Source: a plasmid
Length of the DNA stretch: 11,830 nt
Sequence record: NZ_CP072183.1
Direction: 5' to 3' (one strand)
The notes under the pieces were generated by a model. It was not told where the DNA came from. It ran no database searches and saw only the letters and a list, made by a program, of their open reading frames with translations. The position numbers were made by a program, and so were the translations under genes. Shown here piece by piece: positions 1-11,830 of the stretch; the first letter of the stretch is position 1; each line of letters begins with the position of its first letter.

Positions 1-1674
1 ATGGCAGATGAAGCAGTACGAGCCGTTCAAAAATGGCTCAACAAAACGTATGGTAGCGTTCCTGGCTTTGTCGCAGCTCCAGAAAACGGGCAAACGGGAT
101 GGCCAACAATTTATAGCCTAAGAATGGGATTACAGCACGAAATCGGTATTAGTGCTATTGGTGAAGGCTTTGGCGAGACGACCAAAAACGCCTTAGCACC
201 TGTTGTAGGTAGTCTGAAGCCAGGATATAAGGGGAACATTGCTCAACTCATTCAAGGGGCTTTCTGGTGCAAAGGGATTAGTCCAGTAGACTTTAATAAT
301 GAGTTCACGAATAACACCCTTAATGCTGTTAAAGAACTTCAGCAAGATGCTGGCATTGCGGCTGATGGATCTGTGACAGTGGCATTTATGGCGGCTTTGT
401 TTGACATGGCAGCTTTCGTCTTAGTTTCAAACGGCGATGCTAAGGTTCGAACCATGCAGCAAGCGCTCAACCGTAAATTCTCTGGGGAATTACAAGAATT
501 GATGCCGTGTGATGGCGTTTATCAACGAGCAACTAATACAGCGTTGATTTATGCCTTACAACGAGCAATCGGTATGAGTTCTGCGCAAGCAAATGGTAAC
601 TATGGTCCAGGGACAATTGCCGCTACACCTACTGTTAATCAGGGAGCCAATAGCGACGTTGTCCAGGTCATCCAATACGGCTTGTATGTGAACGGCTTTT
701 ATACAGGGGCATTTGATGGCTATTTTAGTTCAGACGTAGCAACGGCAGTGGTAGCTTTTCGAAAGTTTATGAATTTACCGCCATTTAATAGCACAGCTGA
801 CCTAACCGTCATCAAAGGATTGTTGACTAGCAACGGCAATACTAATCGTGATTCAAATACTTTTGATACAGCAACTCAATTAAGTGCTGCACAGGCAAAA
901 CAACTAAAGCAATTCGATTTTTCAATAGTTGCTCGTTATCTAACTGGCAGCGTTGGTGCAGGGGCTGCCGAACGTGATAAATACTTGACTTCCACGGAAC
1001 TTGCAAATCTTACTGAGGCTGGACTAAAAGTTGTGCCAATATATGAAGATGGTGGCTATGAGTTTGATTACTTTAGTCTACAGCAGGGAATTCATGACGG
1101 ATTTGTTGCAAGTAGTACTGCTGCTAAGTTAGGGTTTCCGGCTGCAACTACGATTTACTTTGCAGTTGATGTGGATGTTCAAAGTGGCGATATAGATGGC
1201 ACAATTATTTCTTATTTCCGTGGTATTAGCCAAGCTATGAACAATAGTATTTTCAAAATTGGAATATATGGAACACGGAATGTATGTAATCGGGTAACCG
1301 CTGCATCGGGGACCAATATTCTTTATTCCTACGTCGCTGATATGTCATATGGATGGAGCGGAAACCTAGGTTTTAAGATGCCTCAAAATTGGGCATTTGA
1401 TCAGTTTGTGGAATACTCAGCTGCAGGTGTTGATATTGACCAAGTAGCTTCTTCAGGAAAAGACCAGGGAAGCGGGACTTTCAAAGTGGATCCTAACGCA
1501 GTACGCCTTGAGTTTGCGCGAACCTTAATTAACAATGCCTATCAGTTAAAACCATTACAACCAGATATTCCGACCTTAGAGGTTGATGGCCCTGAAATTC
1601 ATGTATCAACTATTTTGGCAGAGTTTTATCTTAAACTATCAAGTACTTTTGCGAGCAACGATAGTGGAGCCTAG
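1..1674 (+). CDS. N-terminal fragment of a cell-wall hydrolase-like protein: three ~90-aa PG_binding_1-like repeats followed by a DUF1906/Rv2525c-like glycoside-hydrolase-like domain (FDFSIVARYLTG...IYFAVDVD...IGIYGTRN). No signal peptide. The ORF starts exactly at the window edge, so the true N-terminus may lie upstream.
   Basis: 557-codon open frame. Three internal repeats with the PG-binding pattern (L..G..G..V..LQ..L..). The conserved DUF1906-like motifs are recognised from memory of the family, not from a search. Confidence 0.75.
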   Translation: MADEAVRAVQKWLNKTYGSVPGFVAAPENGQTGWPTIYSLRMGLQHEIGISAIGEGFGETTKNALAPVVGSLKPGYKGNIAQLIQGAFWCKGISPVDFNNEFTNNTLNAVKELQQDAGIAADGSVTVAFMAALFDMAAFVLVSNGDAKVRTMQQALNRKFSGELQELMPCDGVYQRATNTALIYALQRAIGMSSAQANGNYGPGTIAATPTVNQGANSDVVQVIQYGLYVNGFYTGAFDGYFSSDVATAVVAFRKFMNLPPFNSTADLTVIKGLLTSNGNTNRDSNTFDTATQLSAAQAKQLKQFDFSIVARYLTGSVGAGAAERDKYLTSTELANLTEAGLKVVPIYEDGGYEFDYFSLQQGIHDGFVASSTAAKLGFPAATTIYFAVDVDVQSGDIDGTIISYFRGISQAMNNSIFKIGIYGTRNVCNRVTAASGTNILYSYVADMSYGWSGNLGFKMPQNWAFDQFVEYSAAGVDIDQVASSGKDQGSGTFKVDPNAVRLEFARTLINNAYQLKPLQPDIPTLEVDGPEIHVSTILAEFYLKLSSTFASNDSGA

Positions 1675-1697
1675 ATTGCAATAATAAAGTTACCACC
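1670..1697. repeat. IS30-family left terminal inverted repeat
   Basis: Pairs with 2693-2720 in inverted orientation, 25/28 identical. Confidence 0.75.
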
Positions 1698-2610
1698 TAG
1701 AAAGAGGCTTGCTCACTGCTTGAACTGGGGTTTGCCAACGGAGACATTTTCTAGGTTTGTTATTGATAAGCGCTGTGGCTTGTTGAATATCGGTCTCTGA
1801 AACCTGATCAAACTGTGTTCCCTTCGGGAAATAGTAGCGAAGTTCTCGATTGAACCGTTCATTTGTGCCCCGTTCATTCGGGTGATAGGCGTGGCAAAAG
1901 TAAACCGGTATCCGATAGCGCTTTGTAAGCGCCTGATCGCAGGAAAACTCTTTACCGTGATCAACCGTCACTGATCGAACCGGACCCGGAAAGTCCACCA
2001 TCAGTCTTGCAAATCCCTTGAGAACAGCATTTTGTGATAAGTTTTCAAGCTTAGTTGTCGCCATTAAACGTGTCACCCGATCGACAATGGTCAAAACAGC
2101 AGCCTTTGACCCGCGACCACCGCGAACTGTATCCATCTCTAAATGTCCTTTTTCGGTTCGCCGATTAGCTGACTCACTGCGAATCTCAATTGAGGTGCCT
2201 ACTGCTTGGTTATAGCGCGACCGAAGGTCTTGTCTTCTTTTATGACGTTTACCGTGATCAAAGAGTTGGCTTGGCTGAAAATCGACTTGTCTTTGATAAA
2301 TCCAGTGGTAAATCGTGTGTGGCGCACAGTGAACGGCATAACCGACCATTTCAGGGGACCAACCTAGGTTTAGCTTCTCAGTTACCATCCGCTTCAACTT
2401 AGGCGTTAAAATCGAGTGCCGACCACAACGATGCCGACAAGTATCGGCATGATCCTGAGCTATAATGGCGCAGTAATCACCTTCAGGGCAACGGTGAAGC
2501 TCATGCCTAATAGAAATACGAGAGCGGCCTAAGGTCGCGGCGATGTATTGAATCGTGTGGTGTTGCATCAGTTCTATCTGAGATCGTTCAATTAAGGTTA
2601 TAATGGCCAT
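1690..2610 (-). CDS. IS30-family DDE transposase (306 aa)
   Basis: N-terminal HTH region (IERSQIELMQHHTIQYIAATLGRSRISI) and a C-terminal integrase-core/DDE region (...DHGKEF... YFCHAYHPNERGTNE) typical of IS30-family transposases. It is bounded by the IS inverted repeats. Confidence 0.9.
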   Translation of the reverse strand: MAIITLIERSQIELMQHHTIQYIAATLGRSRISIRHELHRCPEGDYCAIIAQDHADTCRHRCGRHSILTPKLKRMVTEKLNLGWSPEMVGYAVHCAPHTIYHWIYQRQVDFQPSQLFDHGKRHKRRQDLRSRYNQAVGTSIEIRSESANRRTEKGHLEMDTVRGGRGSKAAVLTIVDRVTRLMATTKLENLSQNAVLKGFARLMVDFPGPVRSVTVDHGKEFSCDQALTKRYRIPVYFCHAYHPNERGTNERFNRELRYYFPKGTQFDQVSETDIQQATALINNKPRKCLRWQTPVQAVSKPLSRW

Positions 2611-2692
2611 GGGACCTGTCCTTCTCTCTAGATGGTATGTTATGCAAACACCATTTTAGCAAGAACGGACAGGTCTTTTTTCACATTTTCTG

Positions 2693-2720
2693 GGTGGTAA
2701 CTTTAATTATGCAATCTAGG
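2693..2720. repeat. IS30-family right terminal inverted repeat
   Basis: Reverse complement matches 1670-1697. Confidence 0.75.
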
Positions 2721-3206
2721 GGAGCGCCACTAGGTTTTACAATTTCTGATGGTAAATTAGGAACTCAAGTACAATCTGAGATCGATAAATTCAAAGAAGC
2801 ACACGAAGCCGCAAAGAATTTTGACTTTACATCTTTGATTGGTACACTAGGGCCAATGATTGGCAATGGAAATCTAAAAGTTGGAATGTCAACCAAAAAT
2901 GGAATGCTAGGATTTAAAGTGGTCTGTGAATCTACAACAACAGTTGTTACCAACGGACAACAGGAAAATGTTACAACTTCGTTGAGTATCGAGATATACA
3001 CTAAGCCAAATGGATTAGGGATCCCAGCTGAAGATTATAAACCAATTTATGTTCCTGTTTCTGAACATGAACCAAACTTGGGGTGGATTCCTTGGGCAGC
3101 AGGGGCGTTTGTATTAATAGTAACAATTATTATGGCTCCAGAAGTAGCGGCTACTCTTATTGGAGCTGCTGCTAAACTATTGCCAGCGACGTTCATTGCT
3201 GCTTAG
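2709..3206 (+). CDS. C-terminal fragment of the IS-split hydrolase gene. It would be translated only from an ATG lying inside the IS right end. Ends with a hydrophobic TM-like segment (WIPWAAGAFVLIVTIIMAPEVAATLIGAAAKLL).
   Basis: The frame from 2721 is continuous with the frame of ORF 1..1674 once the IS is removed. The track ORF start (2637) and the ATG at 2709 both lie within IS sequence. No independent RBS. Confidence 0.5.
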   Translation: MQSRGAPLGFTISDGKLGTQVQSEIDKFKEAHEAAKNFDFTSLIGTLGPMIGNGNLKVGMSTKNGMLGFKVVCESTTTVVTNGQQENVTTSLSIEIYTKPNGLGIPAEDYKPIYVPVSEHEPNLGWIPWAAGAFVLIVTIIMAPEVAATLIGAAAKLLPATFIAA

Positions 3207-3225: not shown

Positions 3226-3729
3226 TTGGGATTGTTACCATTAATACTTGGTGTACTGGGATATTCCATATTGTTGAGCTCGCTTGCTTTAACAATAATG
3301 GTGCGGCACCAAACTTCTGATCAAAAACGTAGCGAAGCCTATATAAAAGTGGCTAAGTATCTGGGCGAAAACCCAACTTTATTTAAGAAGGTAAACCAAT
3401 TAGTCAAATTGGAAGGTGCAACAAAGCTTATGGCATTCGTGTTCTTTTTTGGCGGATGGATAGTCTATTCAATAAATAGCTTTTTGATTGACTCTTTGGA
3501 CGAGGGAGTTCGTGTAATCATTTTGTGGGCATCGATTGCCTTATTTGTTATTTTGACTATTGTGCAGATGATGCTAGAATTTCGGCACAAAAAATTGTTG
3601 GCTTTTCCTCTTTCTAATATTTCTCTAGTAGAGAATACTGCAGGAGAGAAACGTTGGATTCTCAGCAAGATACTGTTAATGATCGGGACCGTGATATTGA
3701 CAATATGGCTACAACTTGTGGCTCAATGA
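3226..3729 (+). CDS. Small integral membrane protein (167 aa, about 4 predicted TM helices), function unknown. TTG start.
   Basis: RBS AGGAGG at 3213-3218, 7 nt before TTG 3226. Four hydrophobic stretches. Followed by a strong terminator. Confidence 0.7.
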   Translation: MGLLPLILGVLGYSILLSSLALTIMVRHQTSDQKRSEAYIKVAKYLGENPTLFKKVNQLVKLEGATKLMAFVFFFGGWIVYSINSFLIDSLDEGVRVIILWASIALFVILTIVQMMLEFRHKKLLAFPLSNISLVENTAGEKRWILSKILLMIGTVILTIWLQLVAQ

Positions 3730-3832
3730 TTACTAACTGATAAACTTTCAAAATTTGTTCCGTTAGATTGTACCCTAACGATTCGTCCAGAAACGTCTTG
3801 AAACAAAGCCTAAAATCCGATTCAAATAAGTG

Positions 3833-3870
3833 ACCCGAAACGATGTCTAAGATCGTTTCGGGTATTTTTA
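3833..3870 (+). terminator. Rho-independent terminator (12-bp perfect stem acccgaaacgat/atcgtttcgggt, then ATTTTTA)
   Basis: Perfect inverted repeat 3833-3844 / 3852-3863 with a T-rich tail, about 100 nt after the stop of the 3226-3729 gene. Confidence 0.7.
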
Positions 3871-3891
3871 TGGGCAGCCATCCGTAACCGT

Positions 3892-3900
3892 TGCTATAAT
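3892..3900 (+). promoter_or_regulatory. TG-extended -10 element (tgcTATAAT) for the HTH gene
   Basis: Consensus TATAAT preceded by TGn, 34 nt upstream of the ATG at 3934. No convincing -35. Confidence 0.35.
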
Positions 3901-3933
3901 CGTCATTAGAATGCACGAGATGAGGACGGTTAT

Positions 3934-4482
3934 ATGAGTAAGACCATCAAAGAGTTAGCAAATGAATTAGGCATAAGCAAGCAAGCGGTGAGTAAGAAAC
4001 TAACTGCCAACTTCCGAGCCAACCACGTAACAACCGTTACCACCAACGGACGCCAGAAGTTGGTGGTTGATGATGATGGTGTATTTGAACTGAAGTCCCA
4101 ATACATAGAAGATCATAACCAACAACAGGGTGCCAACCATTCAACCGCCAACGTTGTCGACGACAACACTAACTTGGTTGATGAACTAAAAAAGCGCATA
4201 TCGGCTCAGGAGAATGAACTATCTCAAAAAAATAAGCAAATTCTTGCTAAGGATTCCCAATTGGAGAACATGCAGAAACTACTTGATCAATCGCAACAAC
4301 TCCAACTAATGGCCGAAAACAAACTTAAGAAGCTGGAAGCACCCCAAAACAACCCTGAGAGCGGTTCTGATCTAGCAAATGACCAAACGCATGAACGAGC
4401 GCCAGAGGCGCCTGTAAAGGCTGAAAGTAGCCCAGAACAACCGCCGTCTTTTTGGCAGAGATTGTTTGGTACTGGAAAGTAA
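3934..4482 (+). CDS. HTH DNA-binding protein with a Q/E/K-rich coiled-coil C-terminal half (182 aa). Resembles the small replication-associated or accessory HTH proteins (RepB/DUF536-like) found next to Rep_3 replicons in Lactobacillaceae plasmids.
   Basis: RBS GAGG about 7 nt upstream of the ATG. N-terminus MSKTIKELANELGISKQAVSKKL is a classic HTH. A TG-extended -10 (tgcTATAAT) lies at 3892-3900. The family assignment is from memory. Confidence 0.7.
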   Translation: MSKTIKELANELGISKQAVSKKLTANFRANHVTTVTTNGRQKLVVDDDGVFELKSQYIEDHNQQQGANHSTANVVDDNTNLVDELKKRISAQENELSQKNKQILAKDSQLENMQKLLDQSQQLQLMAENKLKKLEAPQNNPESGSDLANDQTHERAPEAPVKAESSPEQPPSFWQRLFGTGK

Positions 4483-4483
4483 C

Positions 4484-4513
4484 AAATAGCCACCGTAGTC
4501 ACGGTGGCTATTT
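4484..4513. terminator. Perfect 13-bp-stem hairpin (aaatagccaccgt-agtc-acggtggctattt) immediately after the HTH gene stop. Likely a transcription terminator or stabilising hairpin.
   Basis: Perfect inverted repeat 4484-4496 / 4501-4513. The U-tract is limited to the TTT that belongs to the stem. Confidence 0.5.
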
Positions 4514-4620
4514 CACTAAGTCTTAAAATCCAGAAATCCGTCAGTACAGGTCGTGATCAAGTAGACCAGTGGCTATTTACAAAGTGGGTTGCACGAGGCT
4601 AGGCAGGGTGAGCACTGCAG

Positions 4621-4634
4621 CTAATGGCCATTAG
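4621..4634. promoter_or_regulatory. Perfect 14-bp palindrome ctaatggccattag, upstream of the type I toxin promoter
   Basis: Exactly self-complementary. Candidate operator. Confidence 0.3.
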
Positions 4635-4707
4635 TCAACTGCGCAGATTCCATAACGAAGTTTTGACTATTTTTGATTGGTAATTAAAGTGGTGTTTACT
4701 GCTTTTT

Positions 4708-4716
4708 TGGTATACT
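4708..4716 (+). promoter_or_regulatory. TG-extended -10 (tggTATACT), candidate promoter of the Fst-like toxin mRNA
   Basis: TGn plus TATACT 56 nt upstream of the ATG at 4772. A cgcg-tgatac-cgcg hairpin in the predicted 5'UTR could sequester the RBS. Confidence 0.3.
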
Positions 4717-4768
4717 AGTTTAGTCGCTACGCCTTTTCGCGTGATACCGCGCCTAAAGGTGGTGATAG

Positions 4769-4786
4769 TTCATGAATTCATTCGAT
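4769..4786. repeat. Direct repeat copy a (ttcatGaattcattcgat), spanning the toxin start codon
   Basis: 17/18 identical to 4977-4994. Confidence 0.6.
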
Positions 4787-4861
4787 AAAGCGATCATCGC
4801 GCCGCTGCTTGTCGGTGTGTTTCTGCTTTTGTTGAAATACGCGCTGGATAACCACAAGTAG
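4772..4861 (+). CDS. Fst/par-family-like type I toxin peptide (29 aa: MNSFDKAIIAPLLVGVFLLLLKYALDNHK)
   Basis: RBS AAGGTGGTGA 7 nt upstream. Single TM helix with a charged C-tail. The core IIAPLLVGVFL closely resembles pAD1 Fst VIAPIFVGLVL. Not in the ORF track because it is under 60 aa. Confidence 0.6.
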   Translation: MNSFDKAIIAPLLVGVFLLLLKYALDNHK

Positions 4862-4896
4862 TGTGAGTAGCGACTAATTCCAGCACCTGGCACCGG

Positions 4897-4930
4897 GTCA
4901 TCATCTTCTTGCGGAGATGATGGCTTTTTT
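4897..4930 (+). terminator. Rho-independent terminator for the toxin mRNA (8-bp stem catcatct/agatgatg, loop tcttgcgg, then CTTTTTT)
   Basis: Hairpin plus T6, about 36 nt after the toxin stop. Confidence 0.6.
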
Positions 4931-4935
4931 CGACA

Positions 4936-5005
4936 CAAAAACCCATGCAGCTTGCGGACTACACGGGTTTGTGATGTTCATAAATTCATTCGATTAGGTT
5001 CATTT
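4936..5005 (-). ncRNA. Predicted antisense RNA antitoxin (RNA II-like, about 60-70 nt) of the Fst-like type I TA module
   Basis: Minus-strand promoter candidates: TATAAT (plus 5014-5019) and TGcTAAAAT (plus 5002-5010). It contains the complement of direct repeat b. It ends at a minus-strand terminator (plus 4937-4968: a 7-bp stem that includes a G-U pair, then U5). The architecture mirrors pAD1 par. Confidence 0.4.
4977..4994. repeat. Direct repeat copy b (ttcatAaattcattcgat), within the predicted antisense RNA
   Basis: 17/18 identical to 4769-4786. A transcript from the minus strand across this copy is antisense to the toxin translation initiation region. Confidence 0.6.
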
Positions 5006-5030
5006 TAGCATAGATTATAACCAGTTGCAT

Positions 5031-5810
5031 TTATAAATCTTTGCTTGAGGATCTGCGTGCAAAGTTATTGTGAATTTCAACTTGAACTACTTGTCGTCCT
5101 CGCTTGGCTTGAAACAATTCCAAATCCATATCATCAATTTTCATATTTATTTCTTCGATCGATCTAATTAGAACGCTTTTTTTCAAATCCTTGTAAGCGT
5201 AGTTTTTGGGGGCGCCTAGCCACTTTTTAAAATCATCCGGAGCGCCTTGGACTATCGGGATTGATTGACCATTATCTTTATCAGACTCACGCATCAATTT
5301 ATACAGCAAAATAGCATATTTGCTTTTGAGCTGGACAGTGTCATGTAAAAGATACTGAGTATAGTGACCATTATCCTTAAGACGTAAAAGAAAAGGCGCA
5401 AAATCTTCATTAATTTTGAGTTCTATTTTACCATTTTCCCAAACCTTGGCACGCTCAAACCAACCAGTCATCGTGATTGATCTTTCTACCTCGTTGTAAA
5501 TTCTGACACTCTTAGCACGCATGTCATTGAGATTTTGAGCTAATTGAGAATATGTACGACCGCTACGTTTTAATTCGAGTACGTTAGATAATTCGTACAT
5601 AGATGTTTGAATGACATTGAAGTTCTTGTCATCAGGCTTAATTTTGGAAATTACATAATCCATAATTTTAAGTTCACGCGCATTCAAGTCATGGCGAGCT
5701 TTAGTGATAAGGTCGTTGTGTTCAGCAACCAAAAAATAGCGTTGATCGTTTATTTCGTCTTTGTTAAAGTTACGGTCATTTTTCCATAAGAGCTTCTTTA
5801 CATCTACCAT
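5031..5810 (-). CDS. rep: Rep_3-family (RepB/RepA-type) theta-plasmid replication initiator protein, 259 aa
   Basis: RBS GAGGTGA 6 nt before the ATG at 5810. N-terminal region (LVAEHNDLITKARHDLNARELKIMDYVISKI) typical of Rep_3 initiators of LAB theta plasmids. Iterons lie immediately upstream. Confidence 0.9.
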   Translation of the reverse strand: MVDVKKLLWKNDRNFNKDEINDQRYFLVAEHNDLITKARHDLNARELKIMDYVISKIKPDDKNFNVIQTSMYELSNVLELKRSGRTYSQLAQNLNDMRAKSVRIYNEVERSITMTGWFERAKVWENGKIELKINEDFAPFLLRLKDNGHYTQYLLHDTVQLKSKYAILLYKLMRESDKDNGQSIPIVQGAPDDFKKWLGAPKNYAYKDLKKSVLIRSIEEINMKIDDMDLELFQAKRGRQVVQVEIHNNFARRSSSKDL

Positions 5811-5869: not shown

Positions 5870-5972
5870 TTTTTACCCCCCTATCGTGTGCTTTTTACCC
5901 CCCTATCGTGTGCTTTTTACCCCCCTATCGTGTGCTTTTTACCCCCCTATCGTGTGCTTTTTACCCCCCTAT
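5870..5972. repeat. Iterons: 4 full plus 1 partial tandem copy of the 22-bp unit tttttacccccctatcgtgtgc (replication origin of the Rep_3 replicon)
   Basis: Exact tandem repeats at 5870, 5892, 5914 and 5936, plus a 15-bp partial at 5958. A 22-bp period (two helical turns) directly upstream of rep. Confidence 0.9.
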
Positions 5973-6013
5973 TAGTCGATTTAAACGCGTGGTTGAGCCA
6001 TTCTCGTCTCCCT

Positions 6014-6055: not shown

Positions 6056-6295
6056 GCGCGCGAGGCTTGTGTTTGTGTTTTGCTTGTTAATAACCACAAA
6101 AGACCTTGGGGAGAACCTCTTCCCAAACCCCATACAAAATTCTGGTCGCGTTGCTCCCTAAAAAGGTGTGGCTGCGCCACATTTAACTCCGGCTTCGCCT
6201 GCGCGCCGTTGGCTTGCCCTAGCGCGCTTCGCTTGCGTGGCTCAGAAGAACCTCAGCTGAAGCTTCGGTAGGGCTATCGCCATTCACCGACAAAA
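6056..6295. other. GC-rich non-coding island (well above the local approx. 35-40% GC) with nested short inverted repeats (tgtggc-tgc-gccaca; gaagcttc). Function unknown, possibly an oriT-like or recombination-site remnant.
   Basis: Composition shift visible by eye. No plausible ORF on either strand. Confidence 0.4.
6269..6287. repeat. 19-bp direct repeat copy 1 (tagggctaTcgccattcac)
   Basis: 18/19 identical to 7071-7089. The two copies bracket the terminator / RHH gene / upstream region. Confidence 0.5.
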
Positions 6296-6356
6296 GCACA
6301 TTGCCTAAATTTGATCAATTACTAAAGATGTTTATTGGTGTCAAGAACCTATGCTG

Positions 6357-6403
6357 ATAAAAACGGCTTAGAACGCAAATATGAGCGTTCTAAGCCGTTT
6401 TTG
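6357..6403. terminator. Bidirectional rho-independent terminator (14-bp perfect stem acggcttagaacgc/gcgttctaagccgt, A5 on the left and T5 on the right)
   Basis: Perfect inverted repeat flanked by A-run and T-run. About 70 nt downstream of the minus-strand small ORF 6474-6653. Confidence 0.75.
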
Positions 6404-6473
6404 ATGTAGAGAGCATTAATTATACCCACCAGAGTAAGAAACGCTAGTACAGGCCCTTTAGCGCTTTTTAAAC

Positions 6474-6653
6474 TCACTGCTTTGATAACCAGTCCTCAAT
6501 GATATTTGATTTGGTCACGCTGACATGGTACTTAGCCAGTTCCGGATTTTGATTCACTTCCTGTTGCTTTTTTGCGACCAGCTGATTCAATTTTGCAATC
6601 GCCTGATCGGTCAAAGTGAACATGACCCGGTGTGTTTCGTCTTGCTTTGTCAT
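6474..6653 (-). CDS. Small (59 aa) ribbon-helix-helix-like DNA-binding protein (MTKQDETHRVMFTLTDQAIAKLNQLVAKK...). Candidate partition or copy-control regulator (ParR/CopG-like).
   Basis: Found by hand, below the track's size cut-off. Strong RBS (AGGAGG, 8 nt before the ATG at 6653). Predicted beta-strand then helix pattern of RHH proteins. Terminated by the bidirectional terminator. Confidence 0.55.
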   Translation of the reverse strand: MTKQDETHRVMFTLTDQAIAKLNQLVAKKQQEVNQNPELAKYHVSVTKSNIIEDWLSKQ

Positions 6654-6979
6654 TTCAAAAACCTCCTGAATGGTGATGATGAATGGTCGTCTAGCAAACC
6701 AACGCGGCGTTTAAATAGCGTCACGTTACCGGACGAGTTTTGGTCAACAGTTGCGACGGCCCTGGTCAAAACGTGAACGTTTTTCTCCAAGCAAAAGATC
6801 AAAATAAATTGAGTTGCTATCCAATCCTTCTCAAAAATCGGCTCGCCTGGATCGACCACTTTTTGAGACTGCTTGGAACGCGCCTAAAATCATGAAAGAG
6901 CATAAGGCAAAACTGACCCCAAAATTGGGGTAAACCGCAGTGCGGTTTGGTTTGTCGTGATAGCACGTTGGGGTCAAAA

Positions 6980-7116
6980 GGTGTAGTAAAACGCCATTTA
7001 CTCCACGTGAAAAAATTACGAACGTGTAGTAAAACGCGTTTTACTACACGTGGATGATGCCAGTTACGACAAGGGCTAGCGCCATTCACTACACGTAAAC
7101 AGTTTTTTACTACACC
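6980..7116. promoter_or_regulatory. Cluster of six copies of the 9-bp motif TACTACACG/CGTGTAGTA, arranged as an imperfect palindrome (6980-7008), a perfect 30-bp palindrome (7022-7051: acgtgtagtaaaacgcgttttactacacgt) and a direct pair (7087-7116). Operator or centromere-like protein-binding array.
   Basis: Repeats read directly. Spacing between centres is about 43 and 65 bp. Lies upstream of the RHH-like gene. Confidence 0.5.
7071..7089. repeat. 19-bp direct repeat copy 2 (aagggctaGcgccattcac)
   Basis: See 6269-6287. Confidence 0.5.
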
Positions 7117-7468
7117 TGAGCAAGATTATTCGCTTATTGGGCATAAACGAACGATTTTTGGTGTTTCAGCGCGTACAGCTATATAGTAGCTTGTCTGCAA
7201 CTCGGCATACGTATAGTGAGTTGCTCGAATTGAAGCGTAGATGTTGCTTTAACAGAAACTGTCGAGATGCTTGTAAATTAACAGAACGTTGAATTAGCCG
7301 AAGCTTTAAAGTTGCACAAATAGCAACTGATATGTTTATCAAATGCAACTCATATATTACACAATGTTCAACTTGAATGAAACTCTAAATGCAAGTGGGT
7401 GTCAACACCACGTGTAACATCGTGAGAAGGTCAGCGAAAAGATGGCGGCAGATGCTGTTTAAATTTTG

Positions 7469-7526
7469 ATTTTGAAGGGGGACTCACCTCCCTTCAAAAT
7501 AACAGGGGGATTGGGGGCGTGCCCCC
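7469..7526. other. Two adjacent G/C-rich hairpins (ttgaaggggg-actcac-ctcccttcaa and ttggggg-cgtg-cccccaa) with no U-tracts
   Basis: 8-bp and 7-bp perfect stems. Not followed by T-runs on either strand. Confidence 0.4.
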
Positions 7527-7573
7527 AAACAAAATTGACGATCAGCGCAGCTGAGATTCTGTCAATTCATCGT

Positions 7574-7589
7574 AAGTGTACGTACACTT
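7574..7589. promoter_or_regulatory. Perfect 16-bp palindrome aagtgtacgtacactt, about 240 bp upstream of the toxin operon promoter
   Basis: Exactly self-complementary. Operator-like. Confidence 0.4.
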
Positions 7590-7827
7590 GCAAATCTCGC
7601 GACAGTAGAAAAACGTCAAAAAGGAAAATTTGGCATTTACGGATTTTGCTTTTTATTTGGGATTCATAGTTAACACTAGATCACTTAAAAATAACGGATT
7701 TTCAATGGAGACGCTAATTACTTTTGAGCTATTCAAGCACATTTTTCTTAGCACATTTAGCGACTTCTTCGGCGTGCTTCGTTCTAGATCAATTCACTTA
7801 GGCAGTGGTTTTATAGGCTAATAATAA

Positions 7828-7856
7828 TTGAGCTTTATGAGTTGTTCAGCTATAAA
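7828..7856 (+). promoter_or_regulatory. Candidate sigma-A promoter of the toxin-immunity operon (TTGAGC-17 bp-TATAAA)
   Basis: -35 at 7828-7833 and -10 at 7851-7856. This would put the TSS downstream of the track ATG at 7842. Confidence 0.45.
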
Positions 7857-7928
7857 ATAGCGACTATACTGCTCAATGTATACAGTTATTGCCAGGCACT
7901 GAAGAACTTTGGAAAGAAGATAATAGGC

Positions 7929-8831
7929 GTGAAAAAGTGGAAAGTTATTGGGCTAATATTCGGGCTCTTTCTAGTCAATTTGCTTGGGTATTCAACAATT
8001 GTATCCGCAGACACAACACAATCTTTAAATCAAATTGTTTCAACTGAAAGCCGTATTAGCGATAACAATACTCAACTGACCAATGCTGACAAGTTATCAA
8101 GAAGTAATCCAGAAAATGGACAACCAATTATCGCTTCTGGAAAACAAGTGGTACTGAATAATAGTCATGGCAATGGCATAAGTTCTCGTGCAGAAGTTCC
8201 TGTTACAAATATTACCTGGCACTTATCGGAAGAATACATATCCGGAAAATTCAGAGTCAATTTCTGGATTGATTCTATTGAGGGTGTCCCGCCAGCCGCA
8301 GTTGATGTGCAAATTGAATTTAATACTGAGCCTACCCTTGCAGGTCCGGTGAATGCCAATACGCTGGCACCCATTAGCAAAATAGGCGGTTTGCAAACAG
8401 GATTACTTGGTTTTACAGAATTGCCAGCCAAAACCACATTTTTTAACGTTGCTGGCGCTGTTGGATTTATAGGAGTTAATGGAGCGGCTAATGTAAAACC
8501 AATCCCACCAACGGCCATCTATTTACAAAATAAAATAGGACAGAATTTCCCTGAATATGTTGATCCCGTGTCTAAAAAAGATGCAGAAACACCTATTAAT
8601 ACTACCTGGACTAAGTTATCAAAATCTCCTAGTTGGTCATCAAAAGATAGATATATTTATATTAAAACGTTCAGTGAAACATATGGCAATCAATCTGCAG
8701 ATTTTTGGAGTTCTCGAGAAGTGCATCATATTCGCCCGAGAGTTTATGGCGGAACAAATGACTTTAATAATTTGATGCCGGTGTTAACACCAAATCATCG
8801 GTTGATCACCGCGTGGTTTAACAACTATTGA
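7929..8831 (+). CDS. Secreted toxin with an N-terminal Sec signal peptide (MKKWKVIGLIFGLFLVNLLGYSTIVSA|DT) and a C-terminal HNH/EndoVII-fold DNase domain of the colicin E9/pyocin (AHH/SHH-like) type: EVHHIRPRVYGGTNDFNNLMPVLTPNHRLI
   Basis: The longest ORF starts at ATG 7842, but a GTG at 7929 gives a canonical signal peptide and lies downstream of the predicted promoter. The C-terminal motif aligns position-by-position with the colicin E9 HNH motif [32 protein letters not shown], recalled from memory. The stop overlaps the RBS of the next gene. Confidence 0.75.
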   Translation: MKKWKVIGLIFGLFLVNLLGYSTIVSADTTQSLNQIVSTESRISDNNTQLTNADKLSRSNPENGQPIIASGKQVVLNNSHGNGISSRAEVPVTNITWHLSEEYISGKFRVNFWIDSIEGVPPAAVDVQIEFNTEPTLAGPVNANTLAPISKIGGLQTGLLGFTELPAKTTFFNVAGAVGFIGVNGAANVKPIPPTAIYLQNKIGQNFPEYVDPVSKKDAETPINTTWTKLSKSPSWSSKDRYIYIKTFSETYGNQSADFWSSREVHHIRPRVYGGTNDFNNLMPVLTPNHRLITAWFNNY

Positions 8832-8843
8832 GGAGGAACTCAT

Positions 8844-9347
8844 TTGGAATCTCTAATTCGGCGAAGAATTAATTCTTTAATAAAGGTGACGAAAAATGGG
8901 GAAAAAGCGCTCTCAACATTCCAATTAGATGGAGATGTGCAAAATGTTTCTTTTAAGATAGAACCTCCTGCACACGCTGATGATATAGAAAAAATAAAAA
9001 GGTGGAACCTTCCACAGGATTACATTGAGTTTCTCTCGATTACTAATGGACTATTTTTATTTGACACAACAATCGAAGGGATTCCTATGGGATATACGTG
9101 TGAAGTCTATTCAATTAGAAAAATGATTAAAGAAAAAGAGGCACTGCCTAAAAGTTTTGTAAATAAAGTACCCATTCTCCATATAAGGGATGTCGGAGAT
9201 ATGTATATTGATATAGAGAAGTATCGGTTAGGAAAATCATATCTAACTCATCCCGGAATAGAAGCAGACCGATATTTCGATTTTTCATTTTCAAAATGGC
9301 TCGATAAATATATGGTGGCGGGAGGCAATGAGTTTTGGAATTTCTGA
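8844..9347 (+). CDS. SUKH-1 (SMI1/KNR4) family immunity protein, 167 aa. TTG start.
   Basis: RBS GAGGAGG at 8830-8836, 7 nt before TTG 8844. Hallmark SUKH-1 motifs W-LPqDYieFL...NG (KRWNLPQDYIEFLSITNGLFLFD) and a C-terminal IRDVGDMYIDI. Translationally coupled to the nuclease gene. Confidence 0.85.
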   Translation: MESLIRRRINSLIKVTKNGEKALSTFQLDGDVQNVSFKIEPPAHADDIEKIKRWNLPQDYIEFLSITNGLFLFDTTIEGIPMGYTCEVYSIRKMIKEKEALPKSFVNKVPILHIRDVGDMYIDIEKYRLGKSYLTHPGIEADRYFDFSFSKWLDKYMVAGGNEFWNF

Positions 9348-11480: not shown

Positions 11481-11652
11481 TCCTTGTCTAGTCTATCCTA
11501 AAAAAACCAGCGCTAAATGAGATAGCACAAACATTTGGAAGGTGAAATTGAGCTTGCGCCCACATTTTCATAGTCGTCGATACATGTCTAACCAAGTCCA
11601 TGAGCGTTCGATGATCCATCGTTGTGGCAATACTTTAAATATAGACATTAAG

Positions 11653-11693
11653 AATGAGGCAACTTCAACACTATGTGAGGGCCTCATTTTTTT
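11653..11693 (+). terminator. Candidate rho-independent terminator (stem aatgaggc/gcctcatt with a large loop, then T7)
   Basis: 8-bp stem plus T7, about 170 nt after the peptidase stop. The loop is unusually long (20 nt). Confidence 0.4.
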
Positions 11694-11830
11694 GCTAAGT
11701 TCAAAATAAAAGGATTATTTGTGGATCAGGGTTGCCTTTCGAAGCTTTGAAGAGATGAAATGAATCCGAACATATGTTTGCTTTTTGTGACGGCAGACGT
11801 GCTGTCTAAAACAAAAAAGGAGACTTTAAA

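What the first reader, a model, noticed from the sequence alone, without database searches (positions are those of the whole stretch)
6474..7130. Hidden 59-aa RHH-like gene with an upstream array of six TACTACACG motifs, including a perfect 30-bp palindrome
A well-expressed-looking small ORF (AGGAGG-N8-ATG, 59 aa, a beta-strand then helix start typical of ribbon-helix-helix proteins) is absent from the ORF track. Its upstream region carries a 9-bp motif six times, arranged as IR (6980-7008), perfect IR (7022-7051) and DR (7087-7116). This is the kind of multi-site array bound cooperatively by ParR/ParG/CopG-type proteins (plasmid centromere or autoregulated operator). No ParA/ParM partner is present in the window. 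It could therefore be an orphan centromere-binding protein, a copy-number regulator acting on the nearby replicon, or the remains of a partition locus. The whole unit is bracketed by 19-bp direct repeats (6269-6287 and 7071-7089), suggesting it moved as a cassette.
Basis: partly seen in the sequence, partly recalled or inferred. Interest (0 to 1): 0.55.

Follow-up and report, generated by a model that had tools for sequence, protein, structure and literature searches.

The report
Orphan conjugative transfer origin on small plasmid
The small gene and its repeat array are most likely a transfer origin (oriT) copied from large conjugative Lacticaseibacillus plasmids, which would let this small, relaxase-less plasmid be moved between cells by a helper plasmid; they are not a partition or copy-number locus.

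Summary
The 59-aa ORF (6474-6653, minus strand), its AGGAGG-N8-ATG start and the perfect 30-bp palindrome are all there. The motif array is two exact copies and four one-mismatch copies.

The interpretation does not hold well. In large Lacticaseibacillus conjugative plasmids the same gene, leader, hairpin core and array lie between the T4SS genes and an operon. That operon encodes the 59-aa protein, an Aux1-like RHH protein, an Aux2 homologue and a MobL relaxase. This is the pLS20-type relaxosome and the canonical oriT position.

The hairpin core persists, with compensatory changes, in genera whose relaxases are only about 45% identical.

The array is three 30-bp dyads and comes in two sequence types. 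[quoted passage not shown] It does not track the 59-aa protein, which is identical on plasmids carrying different types.

The window is a complete plasmid with no relaxase, T4SS, ParA or ParM. It is therefore an orphan oriT, with a candidate type-1 helper (pEG9A) in the strain that carries a plasmid identical over the queried segment.

The 59-aa gene is under purifying selection. No tool supported an RHH fold, and its role is unknown.

This is a new member of a known kind, of moderate interest.

The parts
6474..6653 (-). 59-aa protein gene. It is the first gene of the relaxosome operon in large casei-group plasmids. Here it stands alone.
   Evidence: ORF. Median dN/dS 0.21 over 213 pairs, and 31 of 32 copies intact. 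Variability by codon position 0.045/0.020/0.127. Lies upstream of the Aux1-like, Aux2-like and MobL genes in L010 and L012-L016.
6662..6667 (-). Shine-Dalgarno AGGAGG, 8 nt before the ATG
   Evidence: Read directly from the sequence.
6359..6402 (.). Perfect 18-bp-stem hairpin flanked by A and T runs. Inferred to be a bidirectional terminator ending the 59-aa transcript.
   Evidence: I6. Conserved in L003-L006. The terminator function is an inference.
6654..6897 (-). Conserved non-coding leader between the oriT core and the gene. It contains the imperfect inverted repeat 6804-6837 / 6860-6893.
   Evidence: No codon periodicity in the annotated mini-ORF frame (0.097/0.087/0.096), and single-base indels are present. 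Inverted repeat: I2. No consensus sigma-70 promoter on the minus strand.
6778..7171 (+). Extent of the self-contained oriT unit, as delimited by the second, gene-less copy in pRCEID3.2 and pYIT356
   Evidence: Window 6778-7171 matches L007 1984-2376 and L008 3708-4099. The size is comparable to the 362-bp minimal oriT of pLS20 (PMC5313138).
6898..6907 (+). Near-invariant GAGCATAAGG motif (CCTTATGCTC on the relaxase-gene strand). Candidate part of the relaxase recognition or nic region.
   Evidence: The GCATAAGG core is identical in all 41 distinct core sequences, including Sporolactobacillus, Vagococcus and metagenome loci. That collection was filtered on GCATAAGG with at most one mismatch, so it cannot reveal cores that lack the motif.
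6916..6931 (.). IR2, the palindrome ACCCCAAAATTGGGGT. It varies between relatives with compensatory changes.
   Evidence: Variants CTATCAAAATTGATAG, AACCCAAATATGGGTT, TAACCATTTCATGGTTA and ATATCATAAATGATAT in relatives. Forms a hairpin in the ssDNA fold.
6932..6948 (.). IR1, AAACCGCAGTGCGGTTT. This is the most conserved hairpin of the core.
   Evidence: Hairpin in the ssDNA fold of 6880-6985, z = -3.17, with 0 of 200 shuffles folding as well. Stem ends change in a compensatory way (AACCCGC..GCGGGTT, CACCGC..GCGGTG, AAGCCGC..GCGGCTT). Conservation of the central CCGCAGTGCGG is circular, because that string was the search anchor.
6957..6976 (+). Third element (GTGATAGCAC ... GGGGTCA). It repeats the right arm of IR2 and co-varies with it.
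   Evidence: GGGGTCA, GATAGCAG, GCTAGCAG, GTGGTTA and GATATC track the IR2 variant across loci.
6979..7008 (.). Dyad 1 of the array (imperfect, type 1)
   Evidence: D3 and I1.
7022..7051 (.). Dyad 2, the perfect 30-bp palindrome ACGTGTAGTAAAACG|CGTTTTACTACACGT
   Evidence: I5.
7088..7117 (.). Dyad 3.
   Evidence: Compare the window with L010, L012, L015, L032, L034, L044 and L047.
7072..7089 (+). Right copy of the 18-bp repeat AGGGCTAGCGCCATTCAC. It is the inner flank of dyad 3 and internal to the array.
   Evidence: D4. Conserved as AGGGATAGCGCCATTTAC in large plasmids.
6270..6287 (+). Left copy of the 18-bp repeat. It is an isolated element resembling a half-site flank, downstream of the terminator.
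   Evidence: D4. Conserved in L006, and similarity to the right copy is limited to about 20 bp.

Best explanation
Proposed identity. Window 6474-7171 is an orphan origin of transfer (oriT) of the pLS20/MOB-L type. It sits on a small Rep_3 theta plasmid that has no relaxase and no T4SS.

Proposed anatomy, written in the window's + orientation.
1. The 59-aa gene on the minus strand.
2. A 240-bp non-coding leader.
3. A core made of GAGCATAAGG, the variable hairpin IR2, the invariant hairpin IR1 and a third element.
4. An array of three 30-bp dyads.

Proposed mechanism (inferred).
- A co-resident large conjugative plasmid supplies the MobL relaxase, the Aux1-like RHH protein, the Aux2 homologue and the T4SS.
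- The Aux2 homologue is a TraM analogue. It has an N-terminal RHH domain and a C-terminal tetramerisation domain.
- Aux2 tetramers are proposed to occupy the three dyads. This would make the array the specificity determinant, with type 1 (ACGTGTAGTAAAAC) and type 2 (AATGTYGRATWTT) as the two alleles.
- The relaxase is proposed to recognise the hairpin core and nick near it. The plasmid is then transferred as single-stranded DNA.

The 59-aa protein. It is a casei-group-specific extra first gene of the relaxosome operon. It is kept under purifying selection even on orphan plasmids. It most likely acts as an additional oriT-associated accessory factor or regulator. It does not appear to read the array type.

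Shown versus inferred. Synteny, homology, core conservation with compensatory changes, covariation of array type with Aux2, and selection on the gene are shown here. Nicking, protein binding and mobilisation are inferred.
For: Synteny. In L010, L012, L013, L014, L015 and L016 the same gene, leader, core and array lie between the last T4SS-operon gene and the relaxosome genes. Those genes encode the 59/66-aa protein, an 81-90-aa protein, a 145-aa protein, the relaxase, and a DUF3991/ArdC protein.

Homology.
- The relaxase matches Pfam MobL PF18555 at E = 3.5e-113.
- A profile of the 145-aa protein hits PDB 7nuv, Aux2 of pLS20, at E = 5.9e-35 over its whole length.
- A profile of the 81-90-aa protein hits RHH antitoxins, with 3h87_C at E = 5.8e-10.

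Precedent in pLS20.
- The oriT is the intergenic region directly upstream of aux1-aux2-rel, and it works in trans on a relaxase-less plasmid (PMC5313138).
- Aux2 binds a wide stretch of that oriT, and a motif present three times was proposed as its site (PMC8829557).

Core.
- The same layout, with near-invariant GAGCATAAGG and compensatory changes in IR2 and in the stem ends of IR1, recurs in Sporolactobacillus, Vagococcus and other Lacticaseibacillus.
- Relaxases at those loci are only 43-46% identical to the casei-group relaxase.
- As ssDNA the core folds better than all 200 shuffles (z = -3.17).

Array type.
- In complete PLSDB plasmids, array type against Aux2 N-terminal type gives 18 and 17 concordant versus 3 discordant. 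Fisher p = 2e-7.
- The form of the 59-aa protein and the Aux1 N-terminus lie between the array and aux2. They show no association with array type (p = 1).
- The same 59-aa protein occurs with both array types.

Orphan status and helper.
- The window is a whole plasmid, and its nine large ORFs include no relaxase.
- pEG9C is 100% identical to the window over the queried 6200-7400 segment.
- Strain EG9 also carries pEG9A (79.8 kb), which has a type-1 array, type-1 Aux2, a MobL relaxase and a T4SS.

Spread. 39 of 60 plasmids with a type-1 array and 28 of 51 with a type-2 array are typed non-mobilizable. pRCEID3.2 and pYIT356 carry one unit of each type.

Family link to oriT. The only distant relative of the 59-aa family (P0055) again sits beside an oriT core and a repeat array.
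Against: - No experiment was done. Nicking, binding and mobilisation are all inferred, and the nic site is not located.
- Covariation of array type with Aux2 type is strong but not absolute. Three complete plasmids are discordant (NZ_CP101846.1, NZ_CP045587.1, NZ_CP080337.1), as are three metagenome contigs.
- The plasmids are related to one another, so the Fisher p-value overstates independence.
- The C-terminal tail of the Aux1-like protein is completely linked to the Aux2 N-terminus. It cannot be excluded as the specificity element.
- Several strains that carry the window-type (type 1) small plasmid have a large plasmid of type 2. Examples are CP140138.1 with CP140137.1, and NZ_CP139084.1 with NZ_CP139085.1.
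- The pLS20 oriT shares no recognisable sequence with this core.
- The role of the 59-aa protein is unresolved. No fold or family assignment was obtained.
- Two small ORFs (2637-3206 and 3226-3729) were not scanned against Pfam.
Confidence: 0.72

Rival explanations
1. The 59-aa protein is an RHH protein of the ParG, ParR or CopG type. It binds the TACTACACG array as an autoregulated operator or an orphan centromere, and so acts in partition or copy-number control of the Rep_3 replicon.
For: - The gene is small and well conserved, with a strong RBS.
- By eye the sequence has an RHH-like pattern (RVMFTLTDQAI ... TKSNIIEDWL).
- The array is statistically non-random.
- In the one distant relative (L071), an array of TACCGAY repeats phased at 11 bp lies about 100 bp upstream of the homologous gene.
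- Some records name the protein 'plasmid replication protein'.
Against: - The identical protein occurs with array type 1 (window, pMA3) and type 2 (pMGB0245-3).
- The protein's form shows no association with array type.
- The array lies 326-464 bp upstream of the ATG, with the conserved oriT core in between.
- Gene-less copies of the array exist in pRCEID3.2 and pYIT356.
- No ParA or ParM is present in the complete plasmid. In large plasmids ParA lies more than 4 kb away and is not syntenic.
- No RHH fold was predicted.
- The 'replication protein' name matches no NCBIfam model, and no experimental basis for it was found.
Confidence: 0.08
2. The 59-aa protein is a transcriptional regulator of the relaxosome operon promoter, or a TraY-like bending factor. 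It binds somewhere in the conserved leader or core (6654-6976). The array serves Aux2. On orphan plasmids the gene is kept because it acts in cis on oriT. This partly overlaps the best explanation but assigns the protein a specific role.
For: - The gene is first in the operon and lies immediately downstream of the conserved leader with its inverted repeat 6804-6893 (I2).
- Purifying selection holds on orphan copies, with pN 0.015-0.029 against pS 0.17-0.29.
- The gene and leader are a casei-group-specific insertion between the core and aux1.
Against: - No DNA-binding fold was detected.
- By eye, no protein residue co-varies with the IR2 variant.
- The gene-less oriT unit in pRCEID3.2 shows the gene is not always adjacent to an oriT unit.
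Confidence: 0.3
3. The three dyads are a res-like site for a serine recombinase supplied in trans, used to resolve plasmid multimers. The idea rests on three subsites and on TGT-N-G..A/T-rich half-sites that recall Tn3/gamma-delta res.
For: - There are three dyads with 12-14-bp half-sites.
- By recollection, not by any test here, the type-2 half-site ATGTCGGATTTT resembles the resolvase consensus TGTCYNNTA.
Against: - All three dyads have the same length of about 30 bp. By recollection, res subsites differ in length (28, 34 and 25 bp).
- No resolvase gene lies next to the array in any locus examined.
- The array is always attached to the oriT core and upstream of the MobL operon.
Confidence: 0.02

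Closest known systems
pLS20 (Bacillus subtilis) relaxosome: oriT_LS20, Aux1, Aux2 and the RelLS20 (MOB-L) relaxase
   Same: - The large relatives carry a MobL relaxase (PF18555, E = 3.5e-113).
- They carry a full-length Aux2 homologue (PDB 7nuv, E = 5.9e-35).
- They carry an RHH protein in the Aux1 position.
- The oriT lies in the intergenic region directly upstream, embedded in the conjugation operon.
- In pLS20 the oriT works in trans on relaxase-less plasmids, and Aux2 covers a wide region with a thrice-repeated motif (PMC5313138, PMC5675868, PMC8829557).
   Different: - There is no sequence similarity between the pLS20 oriT and this core.
- An extra 59-aa gene and a 240-bp leader are inserted between the core and aux1.
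- The repeats are three 30-bp dyads, whereas pLS20 has three copies of a 7-mer.
- The window itself holds only the oriT and the extra gene, with no Aux1, Aux2 or relaxase.
Staphylococcal pWBG749-family oriT mimics with SmpO specificity (PMC4652767, PMC8136818)
   Same: - Small plasmids without relaxase or T4SS carry copies of a conjugative plasmid's oriT.
- Several oriT subtypes exist.
- Specificity is set by a small tetrameric accessory protein encoded on the helper.
   Different: - The relaxase family is different.
- Here the inferred specificity factor is an Aux2/TraM analogue.
- The orphan also keeps a small protein gene of its own.
- Nothing has been tested experimentally in Lacticaseibacillus.
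F-plasmid TraM and its sbmA/B/C sites
   Same: - Per PMC8829557, Aux2 is a structural analogue of TraM.
- From my own recollection of TraM biology, not tested here: TraM has an RHH N-terminal domain and a tetramerisation domain. It binds three sites in oriT cooperatively, and TraM and oriT are allele-specific among F-like plasmids.
- The variable N-terminus and conserved C-terminus of the 145-aa protein fit this picture.
   Different: - By recollection, the F sbm sites lie between nic and traM. Here the array lies on the far side of the hairpin core from the relaxosome genes.
- There is no sequence relationship with TraM.
ParG, omega and CopG-type RHH operators or centromeres
   Same: Short repeated sites in direct and inverted orientation next to a small gene.
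   Different: - No NTPase partner is present.
- There is no co-transcription with rep, because a strong hairpin and 660 bp intervene.
- Array type is independent of the adjacent small protein.
- An RHH fold was not predicted.

Membership tests
MOB-L (pLS20-type) oriT | Lies directly upstream of the aux-aux-MobL relaxase genes within a conjugation cluster | tested here: met
   Met in the large relatives L010 and L012-L016. The window carries the homologous DNA: 78-85% identity for the array and a near-identical core.
MOB-L (pLS20-type) oriT | Inverted repeat(s) beside a conserved sequence that is kept across divergent relaxases | tested here: met
   IR1, IR2 and GAGCATAAGG recur at loci whose relaxases are 43-46% identical, with compensatory changes. 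ssDNA fold z = -3.17. The conserved CCGCAGTGCGG and GCATAAGG strings were also the search anchors.
MOB-L (pLS20-type) oriT | Site- and strand-specific nicking by the relaxase, and mobilisation in trans | not testable with these tools
   Requires a nicking assay and mating experiments.
Orphan oriT / relaxase-in-trans mobilisable plasmid | No relaxase or T4SS on the replicon | tested here: met
   The window is a complete circle. The nine large ORFs scanned have no relaxase or T4SS domains. PLSDB types the relatives as non-mobilizable. Two small ORFs were not scanned.
Orphan oriT / relaxase-in-trans mobilisable plasmid | A cognate conjugative helper with the same oriT subtype in the same host | tested here: met
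   Strain EG9 carries pEG9C, which is 100% identical to the window over the queried 6200-7400 segment. It also carries pEG9A, which has a type-1 array, type-1 Aux2, a MobL relaxase and VirB4. This is not universal: strain M233-24W pairs a type-1 small plasmid with a type-2 large one.
Aux2/TraM-type binding array | The repeat sequence co-varies with the DNA-binding domain of the accessory protein | tested here: met
   35 concordant against 3 discordant complete plasmids, p = 2e-7. Markers lying between the array and aux2 show no association. Binding itself was not tested.
Ribbon-helix-helix superfamily (for the 59-aa protein) | Beta-alpha-alpha fold, or profile similarity to RHH families | tested here: inconclusive
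   The AF2 monomer is all-helical (H3-35, H37-40, H48-58; pLDDT 81 and 86). There is no Pfam, NCBIfam, PDB-profile or Foldseek hit. hhalign against the Aux1-like RHH profile gives 0.6% probability. A monomer model cannot show a strand that forms only in a dimer.
Type Ib/II partition locus (ParG or ParR with a centromere) | An adjacent ParA or ParM NTPase gene, with the centromere repeats at the par operon | tested here: not met
   None in the complete plasmid. In large plasmids ParA lies 4-6 kb away and is not syntenic with the array.
CopG-type copy-number repressor | Co-transcribed with and immediately upstream of rep, with the operator at the promoter | tested here: not met
   An 18-bp-stem hairpin (6359-6402) and about 660 bp, including the iterons, separate the gene from rep. 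The same gene sits in a relaxase operon on plasmids with other replicons.

The most novel reading that the evidence does not exclude
The 59-aa protein founds a new, very narrow family of oriT-linked factors. This would be a third relaxosome accessory protein or regulator specific to casei-group MOB-L plasmids. It acts preferentially in cis, which would explain why orphan oriTs keep it intact.

Separately, the two array alleles and the matching Aux2 N-termini form a lock-and-key system. That system partitions small Lacticaseibacillus plasmids into mobilisation groups. Dual-oriT plasmids such as pRCEID3.2 and pYIT356 would be generalists.
Probability: 0.3. Interest if true: 0.55.

Novelty: new member of a known kind. 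Interest (0 to 1): 0.4.

Why it matters
Small cryptic plasmids of L. paracasei, L. casei and L. rhamnosus are widely used as vector backbones and are usually scored as 'non-mobilizable'. If the module is a working oriT, 67 of the 111 array matches in PLSDB sit on plasmids that are typed non-mobilizable yet would be transferable by co-resident MOB-L conjugative plasmids. That bears on safety assessment of probiotic and starter strains and on vector design.

The finding also supplies a natural two-allele test bed for how Aux2/TraM-type proteins set oriT specificity in Gram-positive conjugation. Binding sites have so far only been proposed for pLS20. Finally, it corrects the database names 'plasmid replication protein' and 'replication protein' attached to this gene and to the spurious mini-ORFs in its leader.

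Tried and rejected
- Pfam and NCBIfam scans of the 59-aa protein gave no meaningful hit.
- A PDB profile search, Foldseek on the AF2 model, and hhalign against the Aux1-like RHH profile gave nothing.
- Two AF2 runs gave a helical monomer. This neither proves nor excludes an RHH dimer.
- An Rfam scan of the whole window returned only chance hairpin matches at the terminator.
- The first genome-contig scan with the 59-aa protein found nothing.
- An exhaustive HMM search showed the family is tiny and gave only one distant relative.
- The sigma-70 consensus scan found no convincing promoter for the gene.
- The res-site idea was rejected. The dyads have uniform length, no resolvase is syntenic, and the array is always attached to the oriT core.
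- The upstream ORF 6650-6859 overlaps the start codon by ATGA and is annotated elsewhere as 'replication protein'. It was rejected as coding because it has no codon periodicity, carries indels and varies in length.
- I looked by eye for residues of the 59-aa protein that co-vary with the IR2 variant and saw none.
- The ssDNA fold of the conserved right flank 7130-7420 is no better than shuffles (z = -0.02).
- Literature searches for the core sequence and for the named small plasmids turned up no prior description of an oriT there.
- The '19-bp cassette ends' idea was rejected, because the right copy is internal to the array.
Full report
**1. Observation**

The 59-aa ORF lies at 6474..6653 on the minus strand. 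CCTCCT at 6662-6667, eight bases and CAT at 6651-6653 give AGGAGG-N8-ATG.

TACTACACG occurs twice exactly and four times with one mismatch between 6980 and 7116. The window has 7 matches at up to one mismatch against 1.5 expected, and 0 of 200 shuffles reach 7. The 30-bp palindrome 7022-7051 is perfect, and 6979-7008 is an imperfect copy of it.

The '19-bp' direct repeat is 18 bp with one mismatch (6270-6287 and 7072-7089). The ORF is not hidden in public records. RefSeq annotates it as WP_003572033.1, and other records call it 'plasmid replication protein'.

**2. Where the window comes from**

Over 6200-7400 the window is 100% identical to L. paracasei plasmids pEG9C and pLBPC-2-like records. 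Its end joins its start in a relative, so it is a complete circular plasmid. Its length fits pLBPC-2 plus an IS30-family insertion; that reading is my inference.

It carries the following.
- A Rep_3 initiator (5031-5810, minus strand) with 22-bp iterons at 5870-5979.
- An HTH protein (3934-4482) whose counterparts in related plasmids are annotated DUF536 or 'replication protein B'.
- Cargo genes.

No relaxase, T4SS, ParA or ParM domain was found in the nine large ORFs scanned.

**3. The gene is real but unassignable**

Across 22 distinct alleles the median dN/dS is 0.21, and 31 of 32 copies are intact. Third codon positions vary most, at 0.045/0.020/0.127.

Attempts to assign a fold or family gave the following.
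- Pfam, NCBIfam, a PDB profile search and Foldseek gave nothing.
- AlphaFold2 predicts three helices both with and without a 28-sequence alignment.
- hhalign against an Aux1-like RHH profile aligns 'LTDQAIAKLNQLVAKK' in the RHH register, but at only 0.6% probability.

The RHH idea therefore rests on inspection alone. A monomer model cannot settle it.

An exhaustive HMM search shows the family is tiny. The ORF just upstream (6650-6859) is annotated elsewhere as 'replication protein'. It shows no codon periodicity and varies in length, so it is not coding.

**4. The array is modular**

Megablast matches of several plasmids stop at about 6982, which is the left edge of the array.

In pMGB0245-3 (L004) the array is replaced by a different sequence with the same architecture: three dyads of about 30 bp with half-site AATGTYGRATWTT. 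Homology to the window resumes at about 7155. That plasmid encodes exactly the same 59-aa protein as the window. A protein that read the array specifically could not be identical in both.

pRCEID3.2 (3.25 kb) and pYIT356 carry both array types. Each array is joined to a copy of window 6778-6982, and the two units are in inverted orientation. Only one unit adjoins the small gene.

**5. Context in large plasmids**

Both array types occur in 35-106-kb Lacticaseibacillus plasmids at one fixed place. That place is between the last gene of a T4SS cluster (NlpC/P60, VirB4, pLS20_p028-family) and an operon. The operon encodes the following.
- The 59/66-aa protein.
- An 81-90-aa protein, whose profile hits RHH antitoxins (3h87_C, E = 5.8e-10).
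- A 145-aa protein, whose profile hits PDB 7nuv, Aux2 of pLS20, at E = 5.9e-35 over its whole length.
- A relaxase that matches Pfam MobL at E = 3.5e-113.
- An 81-aa protein.
- A DUF3991/ArdC protein.

This is the pLS20 relaxosome. The facts known for pLS20 are as follows.
- Its oriT is the 362-bp intergenic region just upstream of aux1-aux2-rel.
- That oriT works in trans on a relaxase-less vector, and its nic lies next to an inverted repeat (PMC5313138).
- Both Aux proteins are RHH proteins essential for transfer (PMC5675868).
- Aux2 is a TraM analogue that covers a broad part of oriT (PMC8829557).

**6. A conserved core**

Using the relaxase as bait, I compared loci from other Lacticaseibacillus species, Sporolactobacillus, Vagococcus and metagenomes. 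Their relaxases are 43-46% identical to the casei-group relaxase.

They share the layout GAGCATAAGG-N-AAANCTG-[IR2]-AAACCGCAGTGCGGTTT-GNTTT...[third element]. This corresponds to window 6898-6976. The collection was anchored on CCGCAGTGCGG and filtered on GCATAAGG, so conservation of those two strings is partly built in.

Three observations are not built in.
- IR2 changes by compensatory substitution. Examples are ACCCCAA/TTGGGGT, CTATCAA/TTGATAG, TAACCAT/ATGGTTA and ATATCAT/ATGATAT.
- The third element follows IR2.
- As ssDNA, window 6880-6985 forms two adjacent hairpins with z = -3.17.

In the other species the core is followed directly by aux1. The 59-aa gene and its 240-bp leader are therefore an insertion specific to the casei group.

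**7. Who reads the array?**

The first five large plasmids already pointed the way. The 145-aa protein has a C-terminal 55 residues that are almost identical in every case. Its N-terminal 90 residues are only about 41% identical between plasmids with type-1 and type-2 arrays.

I then cross-tabulated complete PLSDB plasmids by accession and position.

| | Aux2 N-terminus type 1 | Aux2 N-terminus type 2 |
|---|---|---|
| Array type 1 | 18 | 1 |
| Array type 2 | 2 | 17 |

Fisher p = 2e-7. The three discordant plasmids are real, complete records.

In the set of sequenced loci, the 59/66-aa form and the Aux1 N-terminus lie physically between the array and aux2. Neither shows any association with array type (p = 1). 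An association that skips over shuffled intervening DNA argues for functional coupling rather than linkage.

There are two caveats.
- The plasmids are related, so the counts are not independent.
- The Aux1 C-terminal tail is completely linked to the Aux2 N-terminus and cannot be separated from it.

The predicted beta-strand differs between types (RKTFFVDS against RKTVTLDS). That is the segment where RHH specificity usually resides. This last point is an inference.

**8. Mechanism proposed**

The window carries an orphan oriT. A helper plasmid would supply Aux1, Aux2, the relaxase and the T4SS. Aux2 tetramers would occupy the three dyads, whose centres are 43 and 66 bp apart. The relaxase would act at the hairpin core.

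Strain EG9 has both pEG9C, which is identical to the window over the queried segment, and pEG9A. pEG9A has a type-1 array, type-1 Aux2, a MobL relaxase and VirB4. Some other strains pair a type-1 small plasmid with a type-2 large plasmid.

39 of 60 plasmids with a type-1 array and 28 of 51 with a type-2 array are typed non-mobilizable. The conceptual precedent is the oriT mimics of the staphylococcal pWBG749 family, whose subtype specificity is set by SmpO (PMC4652767, PMC8136818).

**9. The 59-aa protein**

Its retention under purifying selection on orphan plasmids suggests it contributes to oriT function or regulation. Among small-plasmid copies pN is 0.015-0.029 against pS of 0.17-0.29.

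Its only distant relative is P0055. There the gene again lies next to an oriT core, but on the other side of an array of nine TACCGAY repeats phased at 11 bp. The link between this family and oriT therefore holds across arrangements. That one case also keeps alive the idea that such proteins bind arrays. What the protein binds remains unknown.

**10. The 18-bp repeat**

The right copy is the inner flank of dyad 3 and is conserved in large plasmids (AGGGATAGCGCCATTTAC). The left copy is conserved in pLA103, and similarity between the two copies does not extend beyond about 20 bp. CGCCATTYAC also occurs inside dyad 1.

The left copy therefore looks like an isolated relic of a half-site flank. 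It is not the end of a cassette.

**11. Verdict**

The partition and copy-control interpretation is not supported. The 'array bound cooperatively by RHH-type proteins' part is plausibly right, but for a different protein (Aux2) and a different process (conjugative transfer).

This is a new member of a known kind, an orphan oriT of a MOB-L system. It carries an uncharacterised small gene and a natural two-allele specificity system. Interest is moderate.

Noticed in passing
window 4772-4861 (+), within 4483-5030: A 29-aa hydrophobic ORF (MNSFDKAIIAPLLVGVFLLLLKYALDNHK) lies between the converging Rep_3 and HTH (DUF536-type) genes. This is the position of the Lpt type I toxin-antitoxin locus described for pLBPC-2 and relatives (PMC5608710).
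   Followed up: partly
window 1-414 and 11638-11830; 1690-2610 (-): The window's end and start are contiguous in L004, so the window is a complete, circularly permuted plasmid. Its length fits pLBPC-2 (10.8 kb) plus an IS30-family transposase insertion.
   Followed up: partly
window 7088-7096, against L010 7094-7102: In all small plasmids with a type-1 array, the left 9-mer of dyad 3 is inverted (ACTACACGT instead of ACGTGTAGT). This turns the dyad into a direct repeat. Large conjugative plasmids keep the dyad. The consequence is unknown.
   Followed up: partly
L007 (pRCEID3.2) 1984-3107; L008 (pYIT356) 3708-4935: Two tiny plasmids carry two oriT units of different array type in inverted orientation, separated by about 400 bp. 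They may be mobilisable by both helper types. The arrangement might also allow relaxase-mediated inversion.
   Followed up: partly
L010, L012-L016 and L029-L051, the aux1-like gene: The relaxosome operon is mosaic. The 59/66-aa form and the Aux1 N-terminus always travel together. The Aux1 C-terminal tail and the Aux2 N-terminus always travel together. The two blocks assort freely, which implies a recombination breakpoint inside aux1.
   Followed up: partly
window 6650-6859 (-); L005 3512-3661; L013 6715-6813: Mini-ORFs in the leader are annotated 'replication protein' in RefSeq. They show no codon periodicity and differ in length between plasmids, so they are probably annotation artefacts. 'Plasmid replication protein' for the 59-aa gene likewise matches no NCBIfam model.
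   Followed up: yes
window 7155-7660: A conserved non-coding stretch to the right of the array is shared by small plasmids of both array types. It contains many (A/T)GTTGC / GCAACT motifs. Its ssDNA fold is no better than shuffles (z = -0.02). It would lie on the array-distal side of the oriT core. Its function is unknown.
   Followed up: partly
window 6100-6290: A GC-rich conserved segment between the iterons and the terminator hairpin is also present in pRCEID3.2 and pYIT356, separated there from the 59-aa gene by an Lpt-like toxin gene. It ends with the isolated 18-bp half-site-like element.
   Followed up: no
window 7842-8831 (+) and 8844-9347 (+): A 329-aa protein with a C-terminal HNH motif and an N-terminal hydrophobic stretch (possible signal peptide, not tested) is followed by an SMI1/KNR4 (SUKH) protein. 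This looks like a polymorphic toxin and immunity pair carried as plasmid cargo.
   Followed up: no
L071 130-640: The distant homologue P0055 (66 aa) lies downstream of an oriT core and nine direct TACCGAY repeats phased at 11 bp. This is a different array architecture and gene placement from the window.
   Followed up: partly
L017 2990-3130; L018 2900-3040: Other Lacticaseibacillus MOB-L oriTs carry arrays of their own beside the same core, with motifs such as ATATCGTGGG and GGGCACAAA. Their Aux2 N-termini are correspondingly divergent. This suggests many specificity types exist.
   Followed up: no
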